32,000 nucleotides of DNA from contig NC_010655.1 of the NCBI RefSeq assembly GCF_000020225.1, positions 2,400,001 to 2,432,000 of the forward strand, read 5' to 3'. The translations under genes were made by a program, and so were the position numbers. The notes under the pieces are model-generated. The model worked only from the letters and a program-made list of their open reading frames with translations. It was not told where the DNA came from and made no database searches. The stretch comes from Akkermansia muciniphila ATCC BAA-835. Its GTDB lineage: Bacteria > Verrucomicrobiota > Verrucomicrobiia > Verrucomicrobiales > Akkermansiaceae. Of this stretch, positions 2,271 through 10,327 are shown piece by piece. How positions within the stretch are numbered: position 1 is the first letter of the stretch; every line of letters begins with the position of its first letter.

Positions 2271-3209
2271 TCATTTCCAGTCTACCCACAGTCTTTTCAA
2301 ATAATCCTCCCCGGAGAAATCCGGGGGCATGGGGTCATGAGTCAGGCGGAAACCGGGAACGGCACGGGCCACCATCCTGCGGAAGTCCTCGTGGCCCAGC
2401 TTGCGGCAGTTGCTGGTGCACAGCATCCAGCCGCCCGGTTCCAGGCATTCGCGAGCCAGCGCCACCAGCTCCCCGTAGTGGGATTCCACCCGGAACACCT
2501 TTCCGCGGTCATCCCGGGAAAACGTGGGAGGGTCCAGAATAATGCCGTGAAAGGTGCGGCCCTGCCTGGCGAACCGTTCCAGCCAGCGGCGCGCGTCCCC
2601 CTTGCAGAAATACTGGGCGGAGGGCTCAATGCCGTTCAGCATGAAATTTTCCCTGGCCCAGTCCAGGCACGGCTGCGCCAGATCCAGCGTGGTTGTCTGC
2701 GCTCCGCCCAGGGCCGCATAAACGGAAAAGGCTCCCGTATAGGCAAAAGTATTCAGCACCCTCATGCCCGGAGCGCTTTTTTCCCTCACCCGGCGGCGGT
2801 GGTCGCGCTGATCCAGAAAAATTCCCTGGGAATAACCGGCGGACATGTCTATTTTAAAACGCACTCCCTGCTCCAAGGCCGTAAATTGCAGGGGAAGGAG
2901 CGGCCCGGCGATCTGGACGGGCGCGTCTTTCTGGTTTTGTTCCAGTTTTTTGTGGAATACGGGCATGCCCGTATCCCGGAGTTCGCTTTCCAGGTCCGCA
3001 GGAATGGAACAGCCGCGTGTGGAGACGAGAAGACGATCCGCCATCTGATCCACAAAGACACCGGGGATTCCATCCCCCACCCCGTCCATGACCCGGAACA
3101 TATCCGTATCCGGCGGAATCAATTCCCTGTTGCGTTCCACGCAATAATGATAATTTCTCTCCACGGCAGAGCAAAGAGTAACGGATGAAGAACGTTCCCG
3201 CAATGTCAA
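2271..3209 (-). CDS. Class I SAM-dependent rRNA methyltransferase (RlmI/RlmK-like, COG1092/PF10672 type)
   Basis: 312-aa ORF. Motifs: FRVMDGVGDGIPGVFVDQMADRLLV, VLNTFAYTGAFSVYAALGGA (SAM pocket) and IILDPPTFS (catalytic DPPxF). The track start at 3209 is a TTG, so the true start is uncertain (somewhere in 3140-3209). Confidence 0.85.
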   Translation of the reverse strand: MTLRERSSSVTLCSAVERNYHYCVERNRELIPPDTDMFRVMDGVGDGIPGVFVDQMADRLLVSTRGCSIPADLESELRDTGMPVFHKKLEQNQKDAPVQIAGPLLPLQFTALEQGVRFKIDMSAGYSQGIFLDQRDHRRRVREKSAPGMRVLNTFAYTGAFSVYAALGGAQTTTLDLAQPCLDWARENFMLNGIEPSAQYFCKGDARRWLERFARQGRTFHGIILDPPTFSRDDRGKVFRVESHYGELVALARECLEPGGWMLCTSNCRKLGHEDFRRMVARAVPGFRLTHDPMPPDFSGEDYLKRLWVDWK

Positions 3210-3440
3210 AGAAGCAGGAGCCTCATTTCCTCCGGAGCAAGAGTTCCGCCAGGGAAAAACGGTTATTCGGACGGCCCTCCTTCATCAACAGAGACATTAA
3301 AAAAATCGCCTGCAAGGCTAGACCTTGCAGGCAACAACATTTTTTACTGCCGGAAAAGAGGTTCTCAAGCTCTTCGGCGGCGAACCATCAGGGCCGCCAG
3401 CCCCAGCAGACTCAGGGACGCCGTAGCAGGTTCCGGCACG
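2926..3440. repeat. Direct repeat, left-flank copy 1 (partner 4621-5125)
   Basis: By-eye alignment to 4621-5125 gives about 12 substitutions plus one 10-nt gap (caccggggat, present only in copy 1) over ~515 bp. The repeat covers the methyltransferase 5' end, the intergenic region with its terminator hairpin, and the last ~25 codons (PEP-CTERM tail) of the downstream gene. Confidence 0.9.
3299..3332 (-). terminator. Rho-independent terminator of PEP-CTERM gene A
   Basis: Perfect 10-bp stem gcctgcaagg/ccttgcaggc (3308-3317 / 3323-3332) with a 5-nt loop. On the minus strand it is followed by a 7-U run (A-run 3299-3305). It lies 33 nt downstream of the stop at 3365. Confidence 0.75.
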
Positions 3441-4138
3441 GCAAGACTCCTGGTTGCAGCAACAATTTCTTCAGGGGTCGCTACGCCCGGCGTAATGCCC
3501 ATGCCCGTTACATAGTCCGTGTTAACAAGCACAGTTTGATAGTTTTGGGATGTCGTCAAATCGGTGTAGGCAAAATTCCGACCATTATTGCATGGCACTC
3601 CATTACCCTTGTCATCAACTACTTTTGTTCCCTTTGCTCCGTCTGACTGGACAGCCGCCACGAGAGTAAGGGTGACGTAATCAGTCTCTTCCACGGTGTA
3701 GGAAAGATTCGCCAAACTCTCCAGAGAAAGGTAAGCAGAAGCACCAGGACTCCACACAGATCCCTGGTAGGCAAACTTAAGACCATCCGCCGTCAACATC
3801 AAGCCTATGGAACCGGAAGTTGAGTTTTCGCTTATTCTTAAATCAACCAGCAAAATGTTGAAAAAATCTGCTTCATGTATGGCGCTCCGCATAGCCGAGA
3901 GATTCAGGCTGAGCGTGATGGAGGAAGGATGACGCTCCCCACCGGTGGTAACTGCGGAAGAAATGGCACCTGCAGCAAACCCGTTGACGCTGTCATCTTC
4001 CGGAGAAGAGTAGGAGATATCCCCACCAGAAAAATTCTGCGACAGATCCGTAAAAAATGTAGTAGCGGCAACAGCACTGCCTTGAAGAAGCCCCCCCAAT
4101 AAGAGAGAGATAAAAGTTGAAAACTTCATATGCGACAT
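3365..4138 (-). CDS. PEP-CTERM sorting-domain protein A (secreted or cell-surface, no recognisable catalytic domain)
   Basis: 257-aa ORF with a signal peptide (MKFSTFISLLLGGLLQGSAVAA if started at the second ATG, 4129). The C-terminus VPEPATASLSLLGLAALMVRRRRA has the PEP motif, a TM helix and an Arg cluster, i.e. an exosortase sorting signal. The body is Ser/Thr/Gly/Asn-rich. Confidence 0.8.
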   Translation of the reverse strand: MSHMKFSTFISLLLGGLLQGSAVAATTFFTDLSQNFSGGDISYSSPEDDSVNGFAAGAISSAVTTGGERHPSSITLSLNLSAMRSAIHEADFFNILLVDLRISENSTSGSIGLMLTADGLKFAYQGSVWSPGASAYLSLESLANLSYTVEETDYVTLTLVAAVQSDGAKGTKVVDDKGNGVPCNNGRNFAYTDLTTSQNYQTVLVNTDYVTGMGITPGVATPEEIVAATRSLAVPEPATASLSLLGLAALMVRRRRA

Positions 4139-4141
4139 TGT

Positions 4142-4157
4142 GCGGATTAACTATCCG
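4142..4157. repeat. Inverted repeat, left arm of invertible segment A
   Basis: gcggattaactatccg is the exact reverse complement of 4370-4385. It has an internal dyad, CGGA-ttaacta-TCCG, around an asymmetric 7-bp core. Confidence 0.9.
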
Positions 4158-4369
4158 TTGGGAAAAAACAGGTATTGCACAATGTTCTCAAAAAATGATG
4201 AACAAATATCGTAATTAATTGAAAATCAAATTATATCTATTATATATCATGGAATTTGAAATAAACTCGTCCAAAAAACATTCACAGATATTTTCTACGA
4301 TTTGCCAATCTGTTTTTTCTGTCTGTGAATCTGCGTAAATTCCTTTTTTTTAAAAAAATAGTTTGACAG

Positions 4370-4385
4370 CGGATAGTTAATCCGC
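4370..4385. repeat. Inverted repeat, right arm of invertible segment A
   Basis: cggatagttaatccgc is the reverse complement of 4142-4157. A perfect TTGACA hexamer (4363-4368) lies just inside it. Confidence 0.9.
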
Positions 4386-4603
4386 TCACAAAAAAAGAGG
4401 CCGGATTTTTCATTCGGCTTCTCACAGGTCATTACACTGACCAACAACGATTTCCGCTTATTCAGCATACTGTTCGTTAAGAGCTTCCATGATTTCCCTG
4501 GAAGCTTCCGGAATGTTGGTGCCCGGTCCGAAGATGGCCACAGCTCCGTGTTCCTTCAGGAAGTCATAGTCCCGGACGGGAATAACGCTGCCACAGAAGA
4601 CCA
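4370..4603. repeat. Direct repeat, right-flank copy 1 (partner 6015-6250)
   Basis: Co-linear with 6015-6250: the IR arm, the terminator hairpin (degenerate here), then the 3' end of mutB. The coding part is near-identical, while the short stretch between the hairpin and the stop codon is more diverged and has small indels. Confidence 0.85.
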
Positions 4604-4620: not shown

Positions 4621-4894
4621 TCTTTCTGGTTTTGTTCCAGTTTTTTGTGGAATACGGGCATGCCCGTATCCCGGAGTTCGCTTTCCAGGTCCGCAGGAAT
4701 GGAACAGCCGCGCGTAGAGACGAGAAGACGATCCGCCATCTGATCCACAAAGATCCATCCCCCGCCCCGTCCATGACCCGGAACATACCCGTATCCGGCG
4801 GAATCAATTCCCTGTTGCGTTCCACGCAATGATGATCATTTCTCTCTACGGCAGAGCAAAGAGTAACGGATGAAGAACGTTCCCGCAATGTCAA
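4621..4894 (-). pseudogene. Relic 5' fragment of the RlmI/RlmK-like methyltransferase (frameshifted duplication remnant)
   Basis: The first ~45 codons match gene 2271-3209 (MTLRERSSSVTLCSAVERNDHHCVERNRELIPPDTGMFRVMDGAGDG vs ...NYHYCVERNRELIPPDTDMFRVMDGVGDG). A 10-nt deletion then shifts the frame. The fragment is truncated at 4621, where it abuts the mutB relic. Confidence 0.9.
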
Positions 4895-4983
4895 AGAAGC
4901 AGGAGCCTCATTTCCTCCGGAGCAAGAGTTCCGCCAGGGAAAAACGGTTATTCGGACGGCCCTCCTTCATCAACAGAGACATT

Positions 4984-5017
4984 AAAAAAATCGCCTGCAA
5001 GGCTAGACCTTGCAGGC
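4984..5017 (-). terminator. Rho-independent terminator of PEP-CTERM gene B (duplicate of 3299-3332)
   Basis: Same 10-bp stem (4993-5002 / 5008-5017), 5-nt loop and 7-U run (A-run 4984-4990), 33 nt downstream of the stop at 5050. Confidence 0.75.
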
Positions 5018-5049
5018 AACAACATTTTTTACTGCCGGAAAAGAGGTTC

Positions 5050-5754
5050 TCAAGCTCTTCGGCGGCGAGCCATCAGGGCCGTCAGCCCCAGCAGACTCAG
5101 GGACGCCGTGGCCGGTTCCGGAACGCTGGCTGTTTCTCCAGAAATAGCCAGAGCATTGAACGTAGGCGTGTGGGAGGAACCCGGAGTATTCACCGTCAGA
5201 ATAATTTCGCCATCTTCATTGGCAATAACGTCACTAATGGTGTACCCCGTGGGAGTCCGGGCCTGAATTGTCTGAGAGTTCGCACCTATGGAAGGAGCCG
5301 CGCTGTCGTAGGTATTGGAAGTCACCAGGGAATTCCAGGCACCGGCCCCCTCAAAAGGACACCCGGTAACAAGGGCAATCTGGTAGGAAGCACCAGCCAC
5401 CAGACCGGAAATAGTCAGGGAAAGAGAAGCTCCTTTGGGGCCGGAGATAAAGGTCTGCCAAGAGTTTCCGAAAGAGATCTGGTTTTCCATAAAAGAATCC
5501 AATCCCTGTGTATCAAAAGAAGTTCCGGAGGAAACCCAGTCCCCAGAAGCGGCGGAAGAAGTAGAACCCAGATTAGCGGAAGAGGCTGCCGTAGCCAGGG
5601 TTGCAACAAATCCGGAACCGGAATCGGTTACAGAAACAGTCTTGGCGGGAGTTTCCGGAAGCAAAGAACTGTTAAAATCAAATAATACAGTAGCAGCACT
5701 CGCGGAAAGCGCGGATACCACAGCCAACATGGAAATAGAGGCGATTCTTCTCAT
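5050..5754 (-). CDS. PEP-CTERM sorting-domain protein B (secreted or cell-surface, unrelated body to protein A)
   Basis: 234-aa ORF with an ATG start and a signal peptide (MRRIASISMLAVVSALSASAATV). The C-terminus VPEPATASLSLLGLTALMARRRRA matches protein A, but upstream of that tail I see no similarity to protein A. Confidence 0.8.
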   Translation of the reverse strand: MRRIASISMLAVVSALSASAATVLFDFNSSLLPETPAKTVSVTDSGSGFVATLATAASSANLGSTSSAASGDWVSSGTSFDTQGLDSFMENQISFGNSWQTFISGPKGASLSLTISGLVAGASYQIALVTGCPFEGAGAWNSLVTSNTYDSAAPSIGANSQTIQARTPTGYTISDVIANEDGEIILTVNTPGSSHTPTFNALAISGETASVPEPATASLSLLGLTALMARRRRA

Positions 5755-5791
5755 AAATAGCAGGTAAACAGCAACTGATTTCAGTCAGTAA

Positions 5792-5809
5792 CGGATTGAC
5801 TATCCGGTG
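5792..5809. repeat. Inverted repeat, left arm of invertible segment B
   Basis: cggattgactatccggtg is the exact reverse complement of 6013-6030. It differs from the A-site core by one base (ttGacta vs ttAacta). Confidence 0.9.
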
Positions 5810-6012
5810 TCAAATTATTTTTTAAAAAAAAGAGGGGGTTATGCGGACGGAACAGATGAAAAAACGGAGTATAGAAAAAATAATAAATAAAAATATCTCC
5901 AAAAATATTGGTTGCGACGTTTATTTTAAATAAATAATATGCTATTTATTATCAATAATTTGAAGTCGATAATAGCTGCTACTCCTGAATATTTTCAATG
6001 TCCGCTTTTTTT

Positions 6013-6030
6013 CACCGGATAGTCAATCCG
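6013..6030. repeat. Inverted repeat, right arm of invertible segment B
   Basis: caccggatagtcaatccg is the reverse complement of 5792-5809. It sits 5 nt from the mutB terminator. Confidence 0.9.
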
Positions 6031-6250
6031 CTCACAAAAAAGAGGCCGGATTTTTCATCCGGCCTCTCGCAACAGGTATTTACCTGATAAACAGGAAATT
6101 CCGTTTAGTCAGCGTACTGTTCGTTAAGAGCTTCCATGATTTCCCTGGAAGCTTCCGGAATGTTGGTGCCCGGGCCGAAGATGGCCACAGCTCCGTGTTC
6201 CTTCAGGAAGTCATAGTCCTGGGCGGGAATAACGCCGCCGCAGAAGACCA
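6015..6250. repeat. Direct repeat, right-flank copy 2 (partner 4370-4603)
   Basis: See 4370-4603. This copy holds the intact terminator and the functional mutB 3' end. Confidence 0.85.
6036..6066 (-). terminator. Rho-independent terminator of the mutA-mutB operon
   Basis: 9-bp stem gaggccgga/tccggcctc (6042-6050 / 6058-6066) with a 7-nt loop. On the minus strand it is followed by a U-run (A-run 6036-6041). It lies 39 nt downstream of the mutB stop. Confidence 0.75.
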
Positions 6251-8249
6251 GGATATCCGGACGGCCCTGCTTGGCAAGTTCCTCCACCAGGGCGGGAAGG
6301 AGAACCTTGTGGCCGGCGGCCAGAGAGCTCATGCCGATCATGTGCACGTCGTTTTCAATCGCCATTTTGGCAGTTTCCTCCGGCGTCTGGAAGAGCGGGC
6401 CCACGTCCACGTCAAAACCGAGGTCGGCATAGGCGGAGGAGACCACCTTGGCGCCGCGGTCATGGCCGTCCTGGCCCATTTTGGCGACAAGGATGCGGGG
6501 ACGACGCCCCGTGCGTTCGGCGAAGTCATCCGTCATCTTGCGGACTTCCTCCACCAGCGGATCTTGACCATAGGATTGAGCGTACACGCCGGTAATGAGT
6601 TTGATTGGTGCTTTATGACGCCCGAAGTGTTTTTCCAGGGCGGAGGAGATTTCACCCAGGGAGGCGCGGGCCTTGGCCGCCTTGATGGCAAGGTCAAGGA
6701 GATTGCCTTCCCCCGTGCGGGCGCATTCGGACAGGGCTTCCAGCGCGGCTTCGCACGCGGCGGAGTCCCGTTCCGCGCGCAGTTTCTGCAGGCGGGCGAT
6801 CTGGGCTTCCCGGACGGTGGTGTTGTCCACTTCCAGAATATCGATCTGGGCTTCCTGTTCCAGACGGTATTTGTTAACGCCGATGATGGGTTCCTTTCCG
6901 GAGTCAATGGCGGCCTGGCGGCGCGCTGCGGCTTCTTCAATGCGCATCTTGGGCAGCCCGGTTTCAATGGCCTTGGCCATGCCTCCGAGTTTTTCCACTT
7001 CCTGAAGGTGGGCCCAGCCCTTGCGAATGAGCTCATTGGTCAGGTATTCCACATAGTAGGAACCGCCCCACGGGTCGATTACCTTGCAGATGGTGGTTTC
7101 ATCCTGAAGATGAAGCTGGGTGTTGCGGGCGATGCGGGCGGAGAAGTCCGTCGGCAGGGCAATCGCTTCGTCCAGGGAGTTCGTGTGCAGGGACTGCGTA
7201 TGGCCGCAGGCAGCGGCTAGGGCCTCAATGCAGGTGCGGGTGACGTTGTTGAACGGGTCCTGTTCCGTGAGGGACCAGCCGGAAGTCTGGGAGTGCGTGC
7301 GCAAGGCCAGGGACTTCGGGTTCTTGGGATTGAACTGCTTGATGAGTTTGGCCCACAGCACGCGGGCGGCGCGCATTTTGGCCACTTCCATGAAGTAATT
7401 CTTGCCCTGGGCCCAGAAGAAGGAAAGACGCGGCGCGAAGGCGTCAATGTCAATGCCCGCCTTGATCCCGGTGCGGACATATTCTAGGCCGTCCGCAAGG
7501 GTGTAGGCCATTTCCAGGTCCGCCGTAGCGCCGGCCTCCTGCATGTGGTAGCCGGAGATGGAAATGGAGTTAAACTTGGGCATGTACTTGGAGGTGAACT
7601 CAAAGATGTCCGCAATAATCCTCATGGAGGGATCAGGCGGGTAAATGTAGGTGTTGCGCACCATGTATTCCTTGAGAATGTCATTCTGGATCGTGCCGGA
7701 GAGCTGGTCCAGCGTGCAGCCCTGTTCCTGGGCGGCGACGATGTAGAAGGCCAGCACGGGCAACACGGCGCCGTTCATGGTCATGGAAACGGACATTTTG
7801 TCCAGGGGAATGCCCTTGAAGAGGATTTCCATGTCCAGAATGGAGTCCACGGCCACGCCGGCCTTGCCCACGTCACCCACCACGCGGGGGTGATCGGAGT
7901 CATAGCCGCGGTGCGTCGCCAGGTCAAAGGCAATGGAAAGGCCCTTCTGGCCCGCCGCCAGGTTGCGGCGGTAGAAGGCATTGGATTCCTCAGCCGTGGA
8001 AAAGCCGGCGTACTGGCGCACCGTCCAGGGGCGCGCCACATACATGGTGGCATACGGTCCGCGGAGGTTGGGAGCCACACCGGCCGTAAAGTCCAGGTGC
8101 AGGCAGTCGTCGTACACGCTTTCCGAGTAGGTGGGCGGCACGGGAATTTGTTCATTGGTCATCCAGGTTTCCGTTTCGGAAGCCGGGGACGGGGCACCAG
8201 CCTTGATTTCAGGATAGGAGGCGGATGCAAAATCAGGAATATTGCTCAT
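6105..8249 (-). CDS. mutB: Methylmalonyl-CoA mutase large (alpha, catalytic) subunit
   Basis: 714 aa. It has the canonical MCM alpha motifs ([51 protein letters not shown]) and a C-terminal B12-binding domain with DxHxxG ([12 protein letters not shown]). Confidence 0.95.
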
Positions 8250-8272
8250 TGGGTGGAATAGGTTGGTGGTTA

Positions 8273-10327
8273 TTAAAGGCCGATTTTGTTTTGAATGGCT
8301 TCAACGGTGTTGTAGCAGTTGGCCTTGACGTGGATGAAGATGTCCACGCCGGCTTCCTTGAATGCTTCCACATAGTCGGCCGGATAACCGGCAAGGGCCA
8401 CCATCATGTCCGGTCTGGTCTCCCTGAGAGCCTTGCAGAAGGCGGGGACGATTTCCGGATAAGTGTCATCCGTGGAGCAGATGACGCACACGGCGCAGCC
8501 GCTTTCCGCAGCTGCCCTGGCCGCGTCTTCCGGAGTTTGGAAGCCGGCCGGATAAACCACATCCAGACCGCCGGCGCGCAGGAAGTCGCGGGAGAAGTCC
8601 GCGCGGGCCTTGTGCTGGCGGAGCGGCCCCATGTTGGCGAAGAAGACCATCGGGCGGGAACCCTTTTCTGCCACCCAGGCGTCAGCCTTGGCGAGCAGGG
8701 ATTCAAAACGTTCCGCCAGGCGGCGCTTCGGCAGGGCTTCCATTTCCAGGGGTTCGCCGCACTTGCAGTCAGCGCCGGCCACCAGGGCCTTGTTGATAAG
8801 GCAGGTGGAAAAGCCTTCTTCGGCGGCCTTGCAGGCGGAGTCCACGCTCATTTCCACGACCGGGAGCTGAATATCCGCATTCTTGCAGCAGCCGTGGCCC
8901 TTGTGGGCGGAACAGCAGGAGCCTTCCGGAACTTCCAGCTTTTTCTCCGCCAGGTTGACATACTGGTTGACGCCCACGATGGACTGCCGGCGCTGGTCCG
9001 CCAGCTCGTAACGCCTGGCGGCGGTGGCGTTCACCTTCTTCTGGATGCTGCCGGCTTTGAGGGCCTTGACGATGCCGCCTTCCTTTTCGATGCCCTGGAA
9101 GAATTCCCATATCTTCCGGGAGGCTTCATCCGTCAGGTTTTCCAGGTACCAGGAACCGCCGGCGGGGTCAACGACCTTGTCCAGATTGCATTCGCCCAGC
9201 AGAATCAGCGGGCAGTTGCGGGCAATGCGGCGAGAGAATTCGTCCGGCATGCGCACGGCAGCGTCAAAGGGAAGAACGTCAATACTGTCCACGCCGCCCA
9301 TGATGGCGGAGAACGCCTGGGCGGAGCCGCGCAGCAGGTTGACCCAGGGATCCACCTTGGAGAGGGTCCAGAAGGAGGTGCGGGCATGGAGCTTGATTTT
9401 GGCAGCTTCCTCGCTGCCGCCGCATTCTTTTACGATGATGGCCCAAAGTTCGCGCAGAGCGCGGATTTTGGCGATTTCCAGGAACAGGTTGGCGCCGATG
9501 GAAACCGTAAAGCGCATGTGCGCCGCAGTTTCATCCACGGAGAGGCCGCGTTCCTCCATGGCGCGCAGGTAGGCCACGGCAGTGGACAGCATGGCGCCCA
9601 CTTCCTCAAAGGCGGAAGCTCCGGAGTCCGCGTAAGGCAGCCCGCTGACGCCGATGGTCTGGAAGCCGGGAGCGTTGGCAACAGCCCATTTGGTCATCAC
9701 GGCCATCTGGTCATAGTAGGCGCAGATGCCCTTCCCCCCGCAAAGGGAGCCCTTCATCACAGCTTTCCCCACCGGGTCATACAGAACGCCGCCCTTGAGG
9801 TCCGCCGTCTTGACGCCGGCGGCCTTGCAGGTGTTCAGGAACATGGAGAGGGTTCCCAGGCCGCAGGAACCGGGAGTGACATATACGGGAAGCCCGTCCA
9901 GCCGGACGCCCCTGAGGGCCGCATCCCAGTCAGCCTGCTTGCGCAGCTTCAGGCCGCATTTGCAGTTGAGCTGAACGTTTACGGCGGTCAGGCCGCGGTC
10001 CAGGTCATGCAGAAGCTTGGCGTTGAAGTCTTCCGGAGAGGAAGCGGGAATGCTCTGGGCGATTTCGCAGGGCTTTTCCATATAGCCCAGGGCGCGCGTT
10101 CCGCGGCGGTACGGAAATTGCCCGGCAGGCATTACCGGGGAATGTTCATCCCATTTGTTATAGATGGGATGCAGGGTAATTCCCTCCACAAGCTTGGTAA
10201 AAAGCTTTTTGTCAAAATCAGCCCCTTTCAGGGCAGCGACTGCTGCCTCGCGCCATTCGGCGTATGTGGCTGGTGCGAATTCTCCGAAATCAATTTCCGG
10301 AGCCGTTGTTTTATTTCCCTGTTGCAT
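8273..10327 (-). CDS. mutA: Methylmalonyl-CoA mutase small (beta) subunit
   Basis: 684 aa with an MCM fold ([24 protein letters not shown]). The C-terminal Rossmann-like domain lacks the DxHxxG cobalamin ligand ([17 protein letters not shown]), as expected for a beta subunit. It ends 23 nt upstream of mutB, matching the mutA-mutB gene order in propionibacteria. Confidence 0.9.

What the first reader, a model, noticed from the sequence alone, without database searches (positions are those of the whole stretch)
5792..6030. Second IR-bounded AT-rich 203-bp segment upstream of PEP-CTERM gene B
Seen directly: cggattgactatccggtg (5792-5809) and its exact reverse complement (6013-6030) bracket the other AT-rich stretch, 37 nt upstream of the gene B ATG. 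The 15-bp core (CGGA-TTGACTA-TCCG) differs by a single base from the A site (TTAACTA). That suggests the same unseen recombinase would act on both.
Basis: partly seen in the sequence, partly recalled or inferred. Interest (0 to 1): 0.8.

Follow-up and report, generated by a model that had tools for sequence, protein, structure and literature searches.

The report
Known Akkermansia invertible promoter switch
This is a real flip-flop DNA switch in front of a surface-protein gene of the gut bacterium Akkermansia, and public assemblies hold it in both orientations, but it belongs to a family of Akkermansia switches already published.

Summary
CGGATTGACTATCCGGTG (5792-5809) and its reverse complement (6013-6030) bracket a 203-nt, 27% G+C segment that ends 37 nt before the ATG of PEP-CTERM gene B.

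It is a working inverton. Public Akkermansia muciniphila assemblies with an identical gene B have identical flanks (59/59 on each side). In two of them the 239-bp segment is the exact reverse complement (239/239). The sister switch A (4143-4384) is flipped in two others. A and B switch independently.

Related Akkermansia species keep the same site layout, CGRATT-NNN-WATCCG. The centre is identical within a pair and differs between switches.

The family is published: the IR motif CGGATT..AATCCG (Jiang 2019), 32 invertons in the type strain enriched near PEP-CTERM genes (Yan 2025), and the experimentally tested cps1 switch (mBio 2026).

My added inference is a split promoter. One inner end always carries TTGAC[A/T] 1-3 nt from the core. 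The core serves as the spacer, and the -10 lies in the fixed flank beside the gene. On that reading B is ON-oriented and A is OFF-oriented in this window.

No recombinase is encoded in the window, and its identity remains unknown.

The parts
5792..5809 (.). Gene-proximal inverted repeat of switch B (18 nt exact). The 15-bp core is 5792-5806, CGGATT-GAC-TATCCG.
6013..6030 (.). Gene-distal inverted repeat of switch B. The core is 6016-6030.
5810..6012 (.). Invertible AT-rich interior of switch B (203 nt). Found as the exact reverse complement in L007 and L009, and in the flipped orientation in the single-copy strains L160-L162.
5808..5813 (-). TTGACA, a -35-like hexamer 1 nt from the core, pointing at gene B in the window's state.
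   Evidence: the hexamer sits at one inner end in all 8 invertons compared
5814..5835 (-). T-run/A-run (cctcttttttttaaaaaataat on the minus strand) just upstream of TTGACA, resembling an UP element. It is the best conserved interior block across species.
   Evidence: the UP-element reading is inference
5785..5790 (-). TACTGA in the fixed flank, 17 nt downstream of TTGACA. Candidate -10 for gene B; a weak match.
   Evidence: inference from the geometry found
5050..5754 (-). Gene B: a 234-aa secreted protein with a PEP-CTERM anchor. The model has a beta-sandwich body that weakly resembles carbohydrate-binding modules.
4990..5020 (-). Terminator-like hairpin after gene B (a duplicate lies at 3305-3335 after gene A).
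6040..6068 (-). Terminator-like hairpin of the methylmalonyl-CoA mutase gene, immediately outside the distal repeat.
4143..4384 (.). Sister switch A: cores CGGATTAACTATCCG at 4143-4157 and 4370-4384. Its interior is inverted relative to B. TTGACA at 4363-4368 on the plus strand points away from gene A.
4137..4142 (-). CACAAT in the fixed flank of gene A, 7 nt before ATG 4129. In the flipped state it would pair as TTGACA-16-CACAAT, a geometry typical of leaderless transcripts.
   Evidence: inference
3365..4129 (-). Gene A: a 254-aa PEP-CTERM protein that shares only its last 25 residues with B.
2926..4603 (.). Copy 1 of the ~1.65-1.69-kb tandem duplication: 5' part of the methyltransferase gene, PEP-CTERM gene, switch, terminator, 3' end of the mutase gene.
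4621..6250 (.). Copy 2 of the tandem duplication, which contains gene B and switch B.

Best explanation
Region 5792-6030 is an invertible promoter switch (inverton) of the Akkermansia family already described. A site-specific recombinase encoded outside this 32-kb window pairs the two 15-bp cores (CGGATT-GAC-TATCCG), exchanges strands within them and flips the 203-nt AT-rich interior. That inversion happens is shown. How it changes expression is inferred, as follows. The interior carries at one end only an A/T-tract plus a consensus -35 hexamer (TTGACA) 1 nt from the core. The 15-bp core forms the 16-17-bp promoter spacer, and the -10 lies in the fixed DNA next to the gene. When the TTGACA end faces gene B, as in this window, a promoter is assembled and the PEP-CTERM surface protein is transcribed. 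When flipped, a poor -35 (TTTTCA) without the A/T-tract takes its place and the TTGACA end faces the mutase terminator. Switch A works the same way and is in the opposite state here, with TTGACA facing away from gene A. A and B switch independently. Their single-base difference in the core centre (GAC versus AAC) may stop the recombinase from pairing an A site with a B site.
For: Inversion. In assemblies with a 100% identical gene B, both 59-nt flanks are 59/59 identical. The 239-bp segment is 239/239 identical to the window's reverse complement in L007 and L009, and the 242-bp A segment is flipped in L002 and L003. The state combinations seen are A as in the window with B as in the window (L001, L004, L005, L006), A flipped only (L002, L003) and B flipped only (L009). 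In the single-copy strains L160-L162 the inverton is flipped relative to the window's B. L163 and L170, from related species, carry the core centre GCC on both arms and sit in opposite orientations. L164 holds two paralogous invertons in opposite states on one contig. Contigs end at or just inside the repeats: L007 at the A core, L165 23 nt inside two invertons, L166 and L168 at a core. Within the window, A and B interiors match better when one is inverted (68% versus 59%), although their flanks are direct repeats.

Family. The IR motif CGGATT..AATCCG, 32 invertons in A. muciniphila ATCC BAA-835, enrichment near PEP-CTERM genes and an experimentally tested cps1 switch are all published.

Split promoter. 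All 8 invertons compared have TTGAC[A/T] (TTGTCA in L163) 1-3 nt from one core, reading outward, against a chance of about 0.008 per inverton. In-silico flipping gives TTGACT-17-GATAAT (L164), TTGACT-17-TATATT (L167), TTGACA-16-CACAAT followed by 7 nt and the ATG (window A), and TTGTCA-17-TATGAA (L163/L170). The T-run/A-run plus TTGACA is the most conserved interior block. A -10-like hexamer 6-7 nt before the ATG is also seen at PPDK, dnaK and groES in these genomes.
Against: No reads were available, so heterogeneity within this strain is not shown. No transcript data exist for either state. The -10 candidate for gene B itself is weak: TACTGA here and TACTTA in L160, both lacking the usual final T. 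Five of the eight flank hexamers lack that T. In strain L173 the B inverton has TTTTAC in place of TTGACA. The AT-rich interior holds other promoter-like hexamer pairs on both strands. The recombinase is unidentified. Whether the published Akkermansia promoter motif is this same TTGACA element could not be checked, because Jiang 2019 is not held.
Confidence: 0.85

Rival explanations
1. It is the same inverton, but the promoter lies wholly inside the interior on the other strand. It would read out through the other repeat, so in this window B is OFF and A is ON.
For: The consensus scan finds TTTAAA-16-TATTAT at 5925-5952 and ATGAAA-17-AATAAT at 5856-5884 on the plus strand of B. A block GTTTAKTTNAAAT followed by a -10-like hexamer is shared by A, B and L163 on that strand (read by eye). 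That orientation is the one seen in the common single-copy strains L160-L162.
Against: The block is lost in L170. It is not found at a fixed place in L164, L167, L174 or L175, whereas the outward TTGAC[A/T] next to one core is present in all 8. Promoter-like hits are expected by chance in 27% G+C DNA: 7 found against 3.1 expected.
Confidence: 0.2
2. It is a miniature transposable element (MITE or IS remnant) with terminal inverted repeats that landed upstream of the gene and has no switching role.
For: It is short, AT-rich and bounded by terminal inverted repeats, and two copies lie 1.65 kb apart.
Against: There is no target-site duplication: the flanks are ...cagtaa|CGG and CCG|ctcaca.... The two copies arise from a tandem duplication of the whole locus. 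The element sits at the syntenic place in other species with different repeat sequences. It is found precisely inverted in situ.
Confidence: 0.03
3. The inversion is real but acts after initiation. A fixed upstream promoter would read through the segment, and one orientation would form a terminator or a structured leader, as in the Clostridioides difficile cwpV switch.
For: The segment lies between the mutase terminator and gene B on the same strand, so read-through from the mutase operon is conceivable.
Against: A strong terminator-like hairpin (12-bp stem, T-run) lies between the mutase gene and the switch. No orientation-specific hairpin followed by a T-run was seen in the interior (and reading). 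No Rfam family matches. This model does not explain the conserved outward TTGACA.
Confidence: 0.05

Closest known systems
Akkermansia muciniphila invertons (Jiang et al. 2019 Science, PhaseFinder; Yan et al. 2025 Microbiome, inverton group 138; cps1 capsule inverton, mBio 2026, PMC13343947)
   Same: Same organism group. Same repeat motif (CGGATT..AATCCG as quoted). Same size class: the one published coordinate set is a 191-bp inverton with 17-nt repeats. Same class of neighbouring gene, PEP-CTERM sorting-domain proteins. Both orientations are found in sequence data.
   Different: This strain carries the locus as a tandem duplication with two independently set switches. The inner arm here is TATCCG rather than AATCCG. 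I could not confirm that this exact locus is in the published tables, which are not held. The split-promoter reading and the partner-matched variable centre are my inferences, not statements from those papers.
Bacteroides fragilis invertible promoters of capsule loci served by the global serine invertase Mpi (from established knowledge; Bacteroides capsule switches are cited)
   Same: Many short promoter switches scattered round the genome in front of surface-structure genes. They share a repeat motif and are apparently flipped by an enzyme encoded elsewhere.
   Different: The repeat sequence is different. The Bacteroides promoters are described as lying wholly inside the invertible segment, with the Bacteroidetes TAnnTTTG -7 motif. 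Here only a -35-like element appears to be carried. The Akkermansia enzyme is unknown.
E. coli fimS switch (FimB/FimE tyrosine recombinases; established knowledge)
   Same: A few-hundred-bp invertible segment bounded by short inverted repeats that turns a surface-structure gene on and off.
   Different: The fim recombinases are encoded next to the switch, the repeats are 9 bp, and the promoter is entirely within the segment. No recombinase gene lies within 32 kb here.
Heterospecific lox/FRT sites with spacer variants (established knowledge of tyrosine recombinases)
   Same: Conserved inverted arms flank a central stretch that must match between the two partners. Here the centre is identical within each pair and differs between switches: GAC, AAC, GCC, GGA, AAG, AGG, CTA (GGA is from the single L169 site).
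   Different: Here this is only a sequence pattern. Neither the class of enzyme nor the position of strand exchange has been determined.

Membership tests
Published Akkermansia inverton family (Jiang 2019 motif; Yan 2025 group 138) | Inverted repeats matching the motif CGGATT..AATCCG | tested here: met
   The cores are CGGATTGACTATCCG and CGGATAGTCAATCCG. The motif is as quoted in PMC13343947. The inner arm is TATCCG, one base off AATCCG.
Published Akkermansia inverton family (Jiang 2019 motif; Yan 2025 group 138) | Both orientations of the segment occur in sequence data, between unchanged flanks | tested here: met
   239/239 identity to the reverse complement in L007 and L009, with flanks 59/59. 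This comes from assemblies of different samples, not from reads of one culture.
Published Akkermansia inverton family (Jiang 2019 motif; Yan 2025 group 138) | Intergenic position next to a gene it could regulate, typically a PEP-CTERM protein | tested here: met
   The switch ends 37 nt upstream of gene B, which has a PEP-CTERM domain. The enrichment is reported.
Published Akkermansia inverton family (Jiang 2019 motif; Yan 2025 group 138) | Carries the published Akkermansia promoter motif | not testable with these tools
   The motif is shown only in figures of papers or tables that are not held. I found an outward TTGAC[A/T] plus an A/T-tract instead.
Published Akkermansia inverton family (Jiang 2019 motif; Yan 2025 group 138) | This exact locus is listed in the published catalogues | not testable with these tools
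   The supplementary tables are not held as text.
Tyrosine-recombinase inversion systems (Fim-like, Xer-like) | A tyrosine recombinase gene linked to the switch | tested here: not met
   No Phage_integrase domain was found in the window's larger ORFs scanned against Pfam. A XerD-like gene lies between two invertons in L164. Its A. muciniphila-type orthologue has no inverton within 10 kb, and the family is conserved as far as Luteolibacter.
Tyrosine-recombinase inversion systems (Fim-like, Xer-like) | Core site with inverted arms around a 6-8-bp overlap region that is identical in both partners | tested here: inconclusive
   The layout is 6-3-6 (CGRATT-NNN-WATCCG) with the centre matched between partners. 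An odd-length dyad fits a 7-nt stagger (TTGACTA), but the cleavage positions are unknown.
Serine invertase systems (Hin/Gin/Mpi) | A serine recombinase gene nearby, and sites about 26 bp long with two-fold symmetry about a central dinucleotide | tested here: not met
   No resolvase domain was found in the window's scanned ORFs. The dyad axis passes through a base (position 8 of 15), not between two bases. A distant global enzyme is not excluded.
MITE / IS remnant | Target-site duplication and many dispersed copies | tested here: not met
   The flanks show no duplication. In the Akkermansia loci held, the motif occurs only as inverted pairs at PEP-CTERM gene starts, and there are none in the 20.9 kb of L176.

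The most novel reading that the evidence does not exclude
The Akkermansia switches are split promoters with heterospecific sites. The invertible DNA carries only an A/T-tract and the -35. The recombination core itself is the promoter spacer. The -10, and for some genes a leaderless start codon 7-9 nt further on, is fixed beside the gene. The central trinucleotide of the core is matched within each pair but differs between switches, so one genome-wide recombinase could serve about 30 switches without recombining one with another. That would include the two direct-repeat neighbours A and B, which would otherwise delete gene B. If the published promoter motif does not already describe this, it would be a new design principle for invertons.
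Probability: 0.3. Interest if true: 0.55.

Novelty: already known. Interest (0 to 1): 0.3.

Why it matters
Akkermansia muciniphila is being developed as a therapeutic gut bacterium, and its surface proteins and capsule shape colonisation and immune contact. This locus shows that a single strain can present either, both or neither of two unrelated PEP-CTERM surface proteins by flipping two neighbouring switches. Genome annotations and strain comparisons that ignore orientation will therefore misjudge what is expressed. The phenomenon itself is published, so the finding confirms rather than discovers. Two questions it leaves open are testable: which enzyme flips these sites, and whether the promoter is split across the recombination site.

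Tried and rejected
The listed rows were single-site matches in unrelated organisms, which I take to be chance hits. The one hit labelled Akkermansia (L080) is an unpaired site inside a coding region. The scan says nothing about the regulon.

2. The metagenome scan with a loosened paired pattern returned 30 stretches. All belong to an unrelated self-palindromic repeat, GTAGGGG-CGGATTCNATATCCG-CCC, and none are Akkermansia.

3. Two viral-contig scans found nothing.

4. Jiang et al. 2019 is not held, and the inverton tables of Yan et al. are not held as text. I could not check whether this locus is listed or see the published promoter logo.

5. The XerD-like recombinase next to a D12 methyltransferase, lying between two invertons in L164, looked promising. 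I rejected it as more than a weak candidate. The same gene pair in an A. muciniphila-type contig has no inverton within 10 kb, and the family is conserved in non-gut Verrucomicrobia.

6. A 30-codon ORF inside the B interior (called in L007) is not conserved in A (read), so I treat it as spurious.

7. Rfam gave no credible match.

8. The fold search for gene B gave only weak similarity to carbohydrate-binding beta-sandwiches (best E = 0.002). This is a lead, not an assignment.

Full report
**Observation.** An exact 18-nt inverted repeat, cggattgactatccggtg at 5792-5809 and its reverse complement at 6013-6030, encloses 203 nt of about 27% G+C in a region of 55-60% G+C. The repeat ends 37 nt upstream of the ATG (5754, minus strand) of a 234-aa ORF with a PEP-CTERM sorting signal. 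A sister element lies at 4143-4384, in front of a second PEP-CTERM gene, and its 15-bp core differs at one base. Allowing up to two mismatches, the motif CGGATTRACTATCCG has four matches in the 32-kb window. All four are exact and form two inverted pairs, against 0.08 expected by chance.

**Setting.** The window is Akkermansia muciniphila-like DNA. A look-up of the exact gene B protein returned A. muciniphila genomes and human-gut assemblies. Gene B lies between the methylmalonyl-CoA mutase genes (6105-10327, minus strand) and a SAM-dependent methyltransferase gene. In this strain the locus is a tandem duplication of about 1.65-1.69 kb. Each copy holds the 5' part of the methyltransferase gene, a PEP-CTERM gene, the switch, a terminator and the 3' end of the mutase gene. 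The two PEP-CTERM proteins share only their last 25 residues, at 88% identity. Most strains sampled have a single copy of the locus.

**It inverts.** Nine public contigs encode an identical gene B.
- In L007 and L009 the 239-bp segment is 239/239 identical to the window's reverse complement, while 59 nt on each side are 59/59 identical in direct orientation.
- The 242-bp A segment behaves the same way in L002 and L003.
- The state combinations seen show that the two switches are set independently: both as in the window (L001, L004, L005, L006), A flipped alone (L002, L003) and B flipped alone (L009).
- In the single-copy strains L160-L162 the inverton is flipped relative to the window's B.
- Within the window, the interiors of A and B align better when one is inverted (68% versus 59%), although their flanks are direct repeats. 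One of them has therefore flipped since the duplication.
- Contigs of related loci end at or just inside the repeats: L007 at the A core, L165 23 nt inside two invertons, L166 and L168 at a core. I read this as the pattern expected when both orientations are present in one sample; that reading is inference.

**Conservation.** Orthologues and paralogues of gene B in other Akkermansia species have an inverton at the same place, with different repeat sequences and the same layout. Written from the outside inwards, the core is CGRATT-NNN-WATCCG.
- The centre is GAC (B), AAC (A), GCC (L163, L170), AAG and AGG (L164) or CTA (L175). A single site seen in L169 has GGA.
- More distant homologues use AGCATT-NNN-AATGCT (L167, L168, L174).
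- The centre is always identical between the two partners of a switch.
- L163 and L170 are in opposite orientations, and so are the two invertons of L164. The inner flanks are swapped and the outer flanks are fixed.

**How it probably controls the gene (inference).**
- Every one of the eight invertons compared has TTGAC[A/T] (TTGTCA in L163) 1-3 nt from the core, at one end only and reading outward. Chance is about 0.008 per inverton.
- In A, B and their orthologues this hexamer is preceded by a T-run/A-run that is the best conserved part of the interior. It resembles an UP element, a comparison that rests on established knowledge of E. coli promoters.
- With the 15-bp core as a 16-17-bp spacer, the -10 falls in the fixed flank next to the gene. 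The pairings are TTGACT-17-GATAAT (L164), TTGACT-17-TATATT (L167), TTGTCA-17-TATGAA followed 9 nt later by the ATG (L163, L170), and TTGACA-16-CACAAT followed 7 nt later by the ATG (window A after flipping).
- A -10-like hexamer 6-7 nt before the ATG is also seen at PPDK, dnaK and groES in these genomes. Leaderless starts are therefore plausible in this genus.
- On this model the window's B is ON-oriented (TTGACA at 5813-5808, minus strand) and A is OFF-oriented (TTGACA at 4363-4368, plus strand, facing the terminator).
- I give this assignment about 0.6. The -10 for B itself is weak (TACTGA), and several flank hexamers lack the usual final T.
- The rival is a complete internal promoter on the other strand, such as TTTAAA-16-TATTAT at 5925-5952. 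It would reverse the assignment, but it is less conserved across the relatives.

**The enzyme.** No recombinase domain was found in the window's larger ORFs scanned against Pfam. A XerD-like gene paired with a D12 methyltransferase sits between the two invertons of L164. The same gene pair in an A. muciniphila-type contig has no inverton within 10 kb, and the family extends to Luteolibacter. I treat it as a weak candidate only. Two features of the site fit a tyrosine recombinase better than a Hin-type serine invertase: the dyad axis falls on a base rather than between two bases, and the centre is matched between partners. This is inference only. I found no paper that names the Akkermansia invertase.

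**What is already known.**
- PMC13343947 and PMC11892184 attribute an A. muciniphila IR motif and a promoter motif to Jiang et al. 2019.
- Yan et al. 2025 found 32 invertons of that group in ATCC BAA-835, enriched near PEP-CTERM sorting-domain proteins, with orientation changing across mouse generations.
- Long-read work found Akkermansia to have the highest number of intergenic invertons per genome, 5.55.
- The cps1 inverton has been tied experimentally to capsule ON and OFF states.
- The outer-membrane proteome study found 9 of 23 PEP-CTERM proteins, some only on glucose or only on mucin. That would fit phase-variable expression.

**Verdict.** The finding is a correct blind rediscovery of a known kind of element. 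What may be new is the tandem pair of independently set switches, the split-promoter geometry and the partner-matched variable centre. None of these could be checked against the primary catalogue.

**Other checks.** No Rfam family matches the region. There is no target-site duplication and the motif is not dispersed, which argues against a MITE. The gene B protein models as a beta-sandwich (mean pLDDT 77) with only weak similarity to carbohydrate-binding modules.

Noticed in passing
window 2926-4603 and 4621-6250: Tandem duplication of the whole switch-plus-gene cassette. It left a 167-nt fragment of the mutase 3' end (4437-4603) fused to a fragment of the methyltransferase 5' end (4621 onward). 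The two PEP-CTERM genes share only the last 25 codons, so the gene body was replaced rather than diverged.
   Followed up: partly
L130-L159 (metagenome contigs): An unrelated dispersed repeat, GTAGGGG-CGGATTC[C/A/T]ATATCCG-CCC, which is itself a palindrome, often occurs in several copies per contig. It matched my loosened paired pattern by accident.
   Followed up: no
L164 4780-4952 and 8453-8625: Two paralogous invertons (centres AAG and AGG) in opposite states flank a D12 DNA methyltransferase and a XerD-like tyrosine recombinase. The upstream 300-aa gene end is also duplicated. The second PEP-CTERM gene looks truncated.
   Followed up: partly
L174 3097-3318: An inverton lies between two divergently oriented paralogous genes whose first 24 nt are identical (2287-3009 minus strand, 3406-4167 plus strand). 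The outward TTGACA could serve one gene or the other, giving an either/or toggle. A third copy of the repeat lies inside it.
   Followed up: no
L173 8087-8325: In strain LN831787.1 the B inverton has TTTTAC where other strains have TTGACA. It also carries an extra 18-nt internal inverted repeat (AAAATTATTTTTTTAAAA) near both ends.
   Followed up: no
L005 3753-3963; L161 5460-5474: Strain CP024740.1 has a 28-bp deletion in the B interior. L161 has a mutated distal core (CGGGTT...), which might lock the switch.
   Followed up: no
L160 10649, L175 3624 and 1617 (upstream regions): PPDK, dnaK and groES have a -10-like hexamer 6-7 nt before the ATG and no Shine-Dalgarno sequence, which suggests leaderless transcripts in Akkermansia.
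   Followed up: no
L160-L162 5737-6435: The gene B orthologue is an intact 232-codon ORF, but the collection's gene call starts 264 nt downstream and gives 144 aa. Its anchor reads PES instead of PEP.
   Followed up: partly
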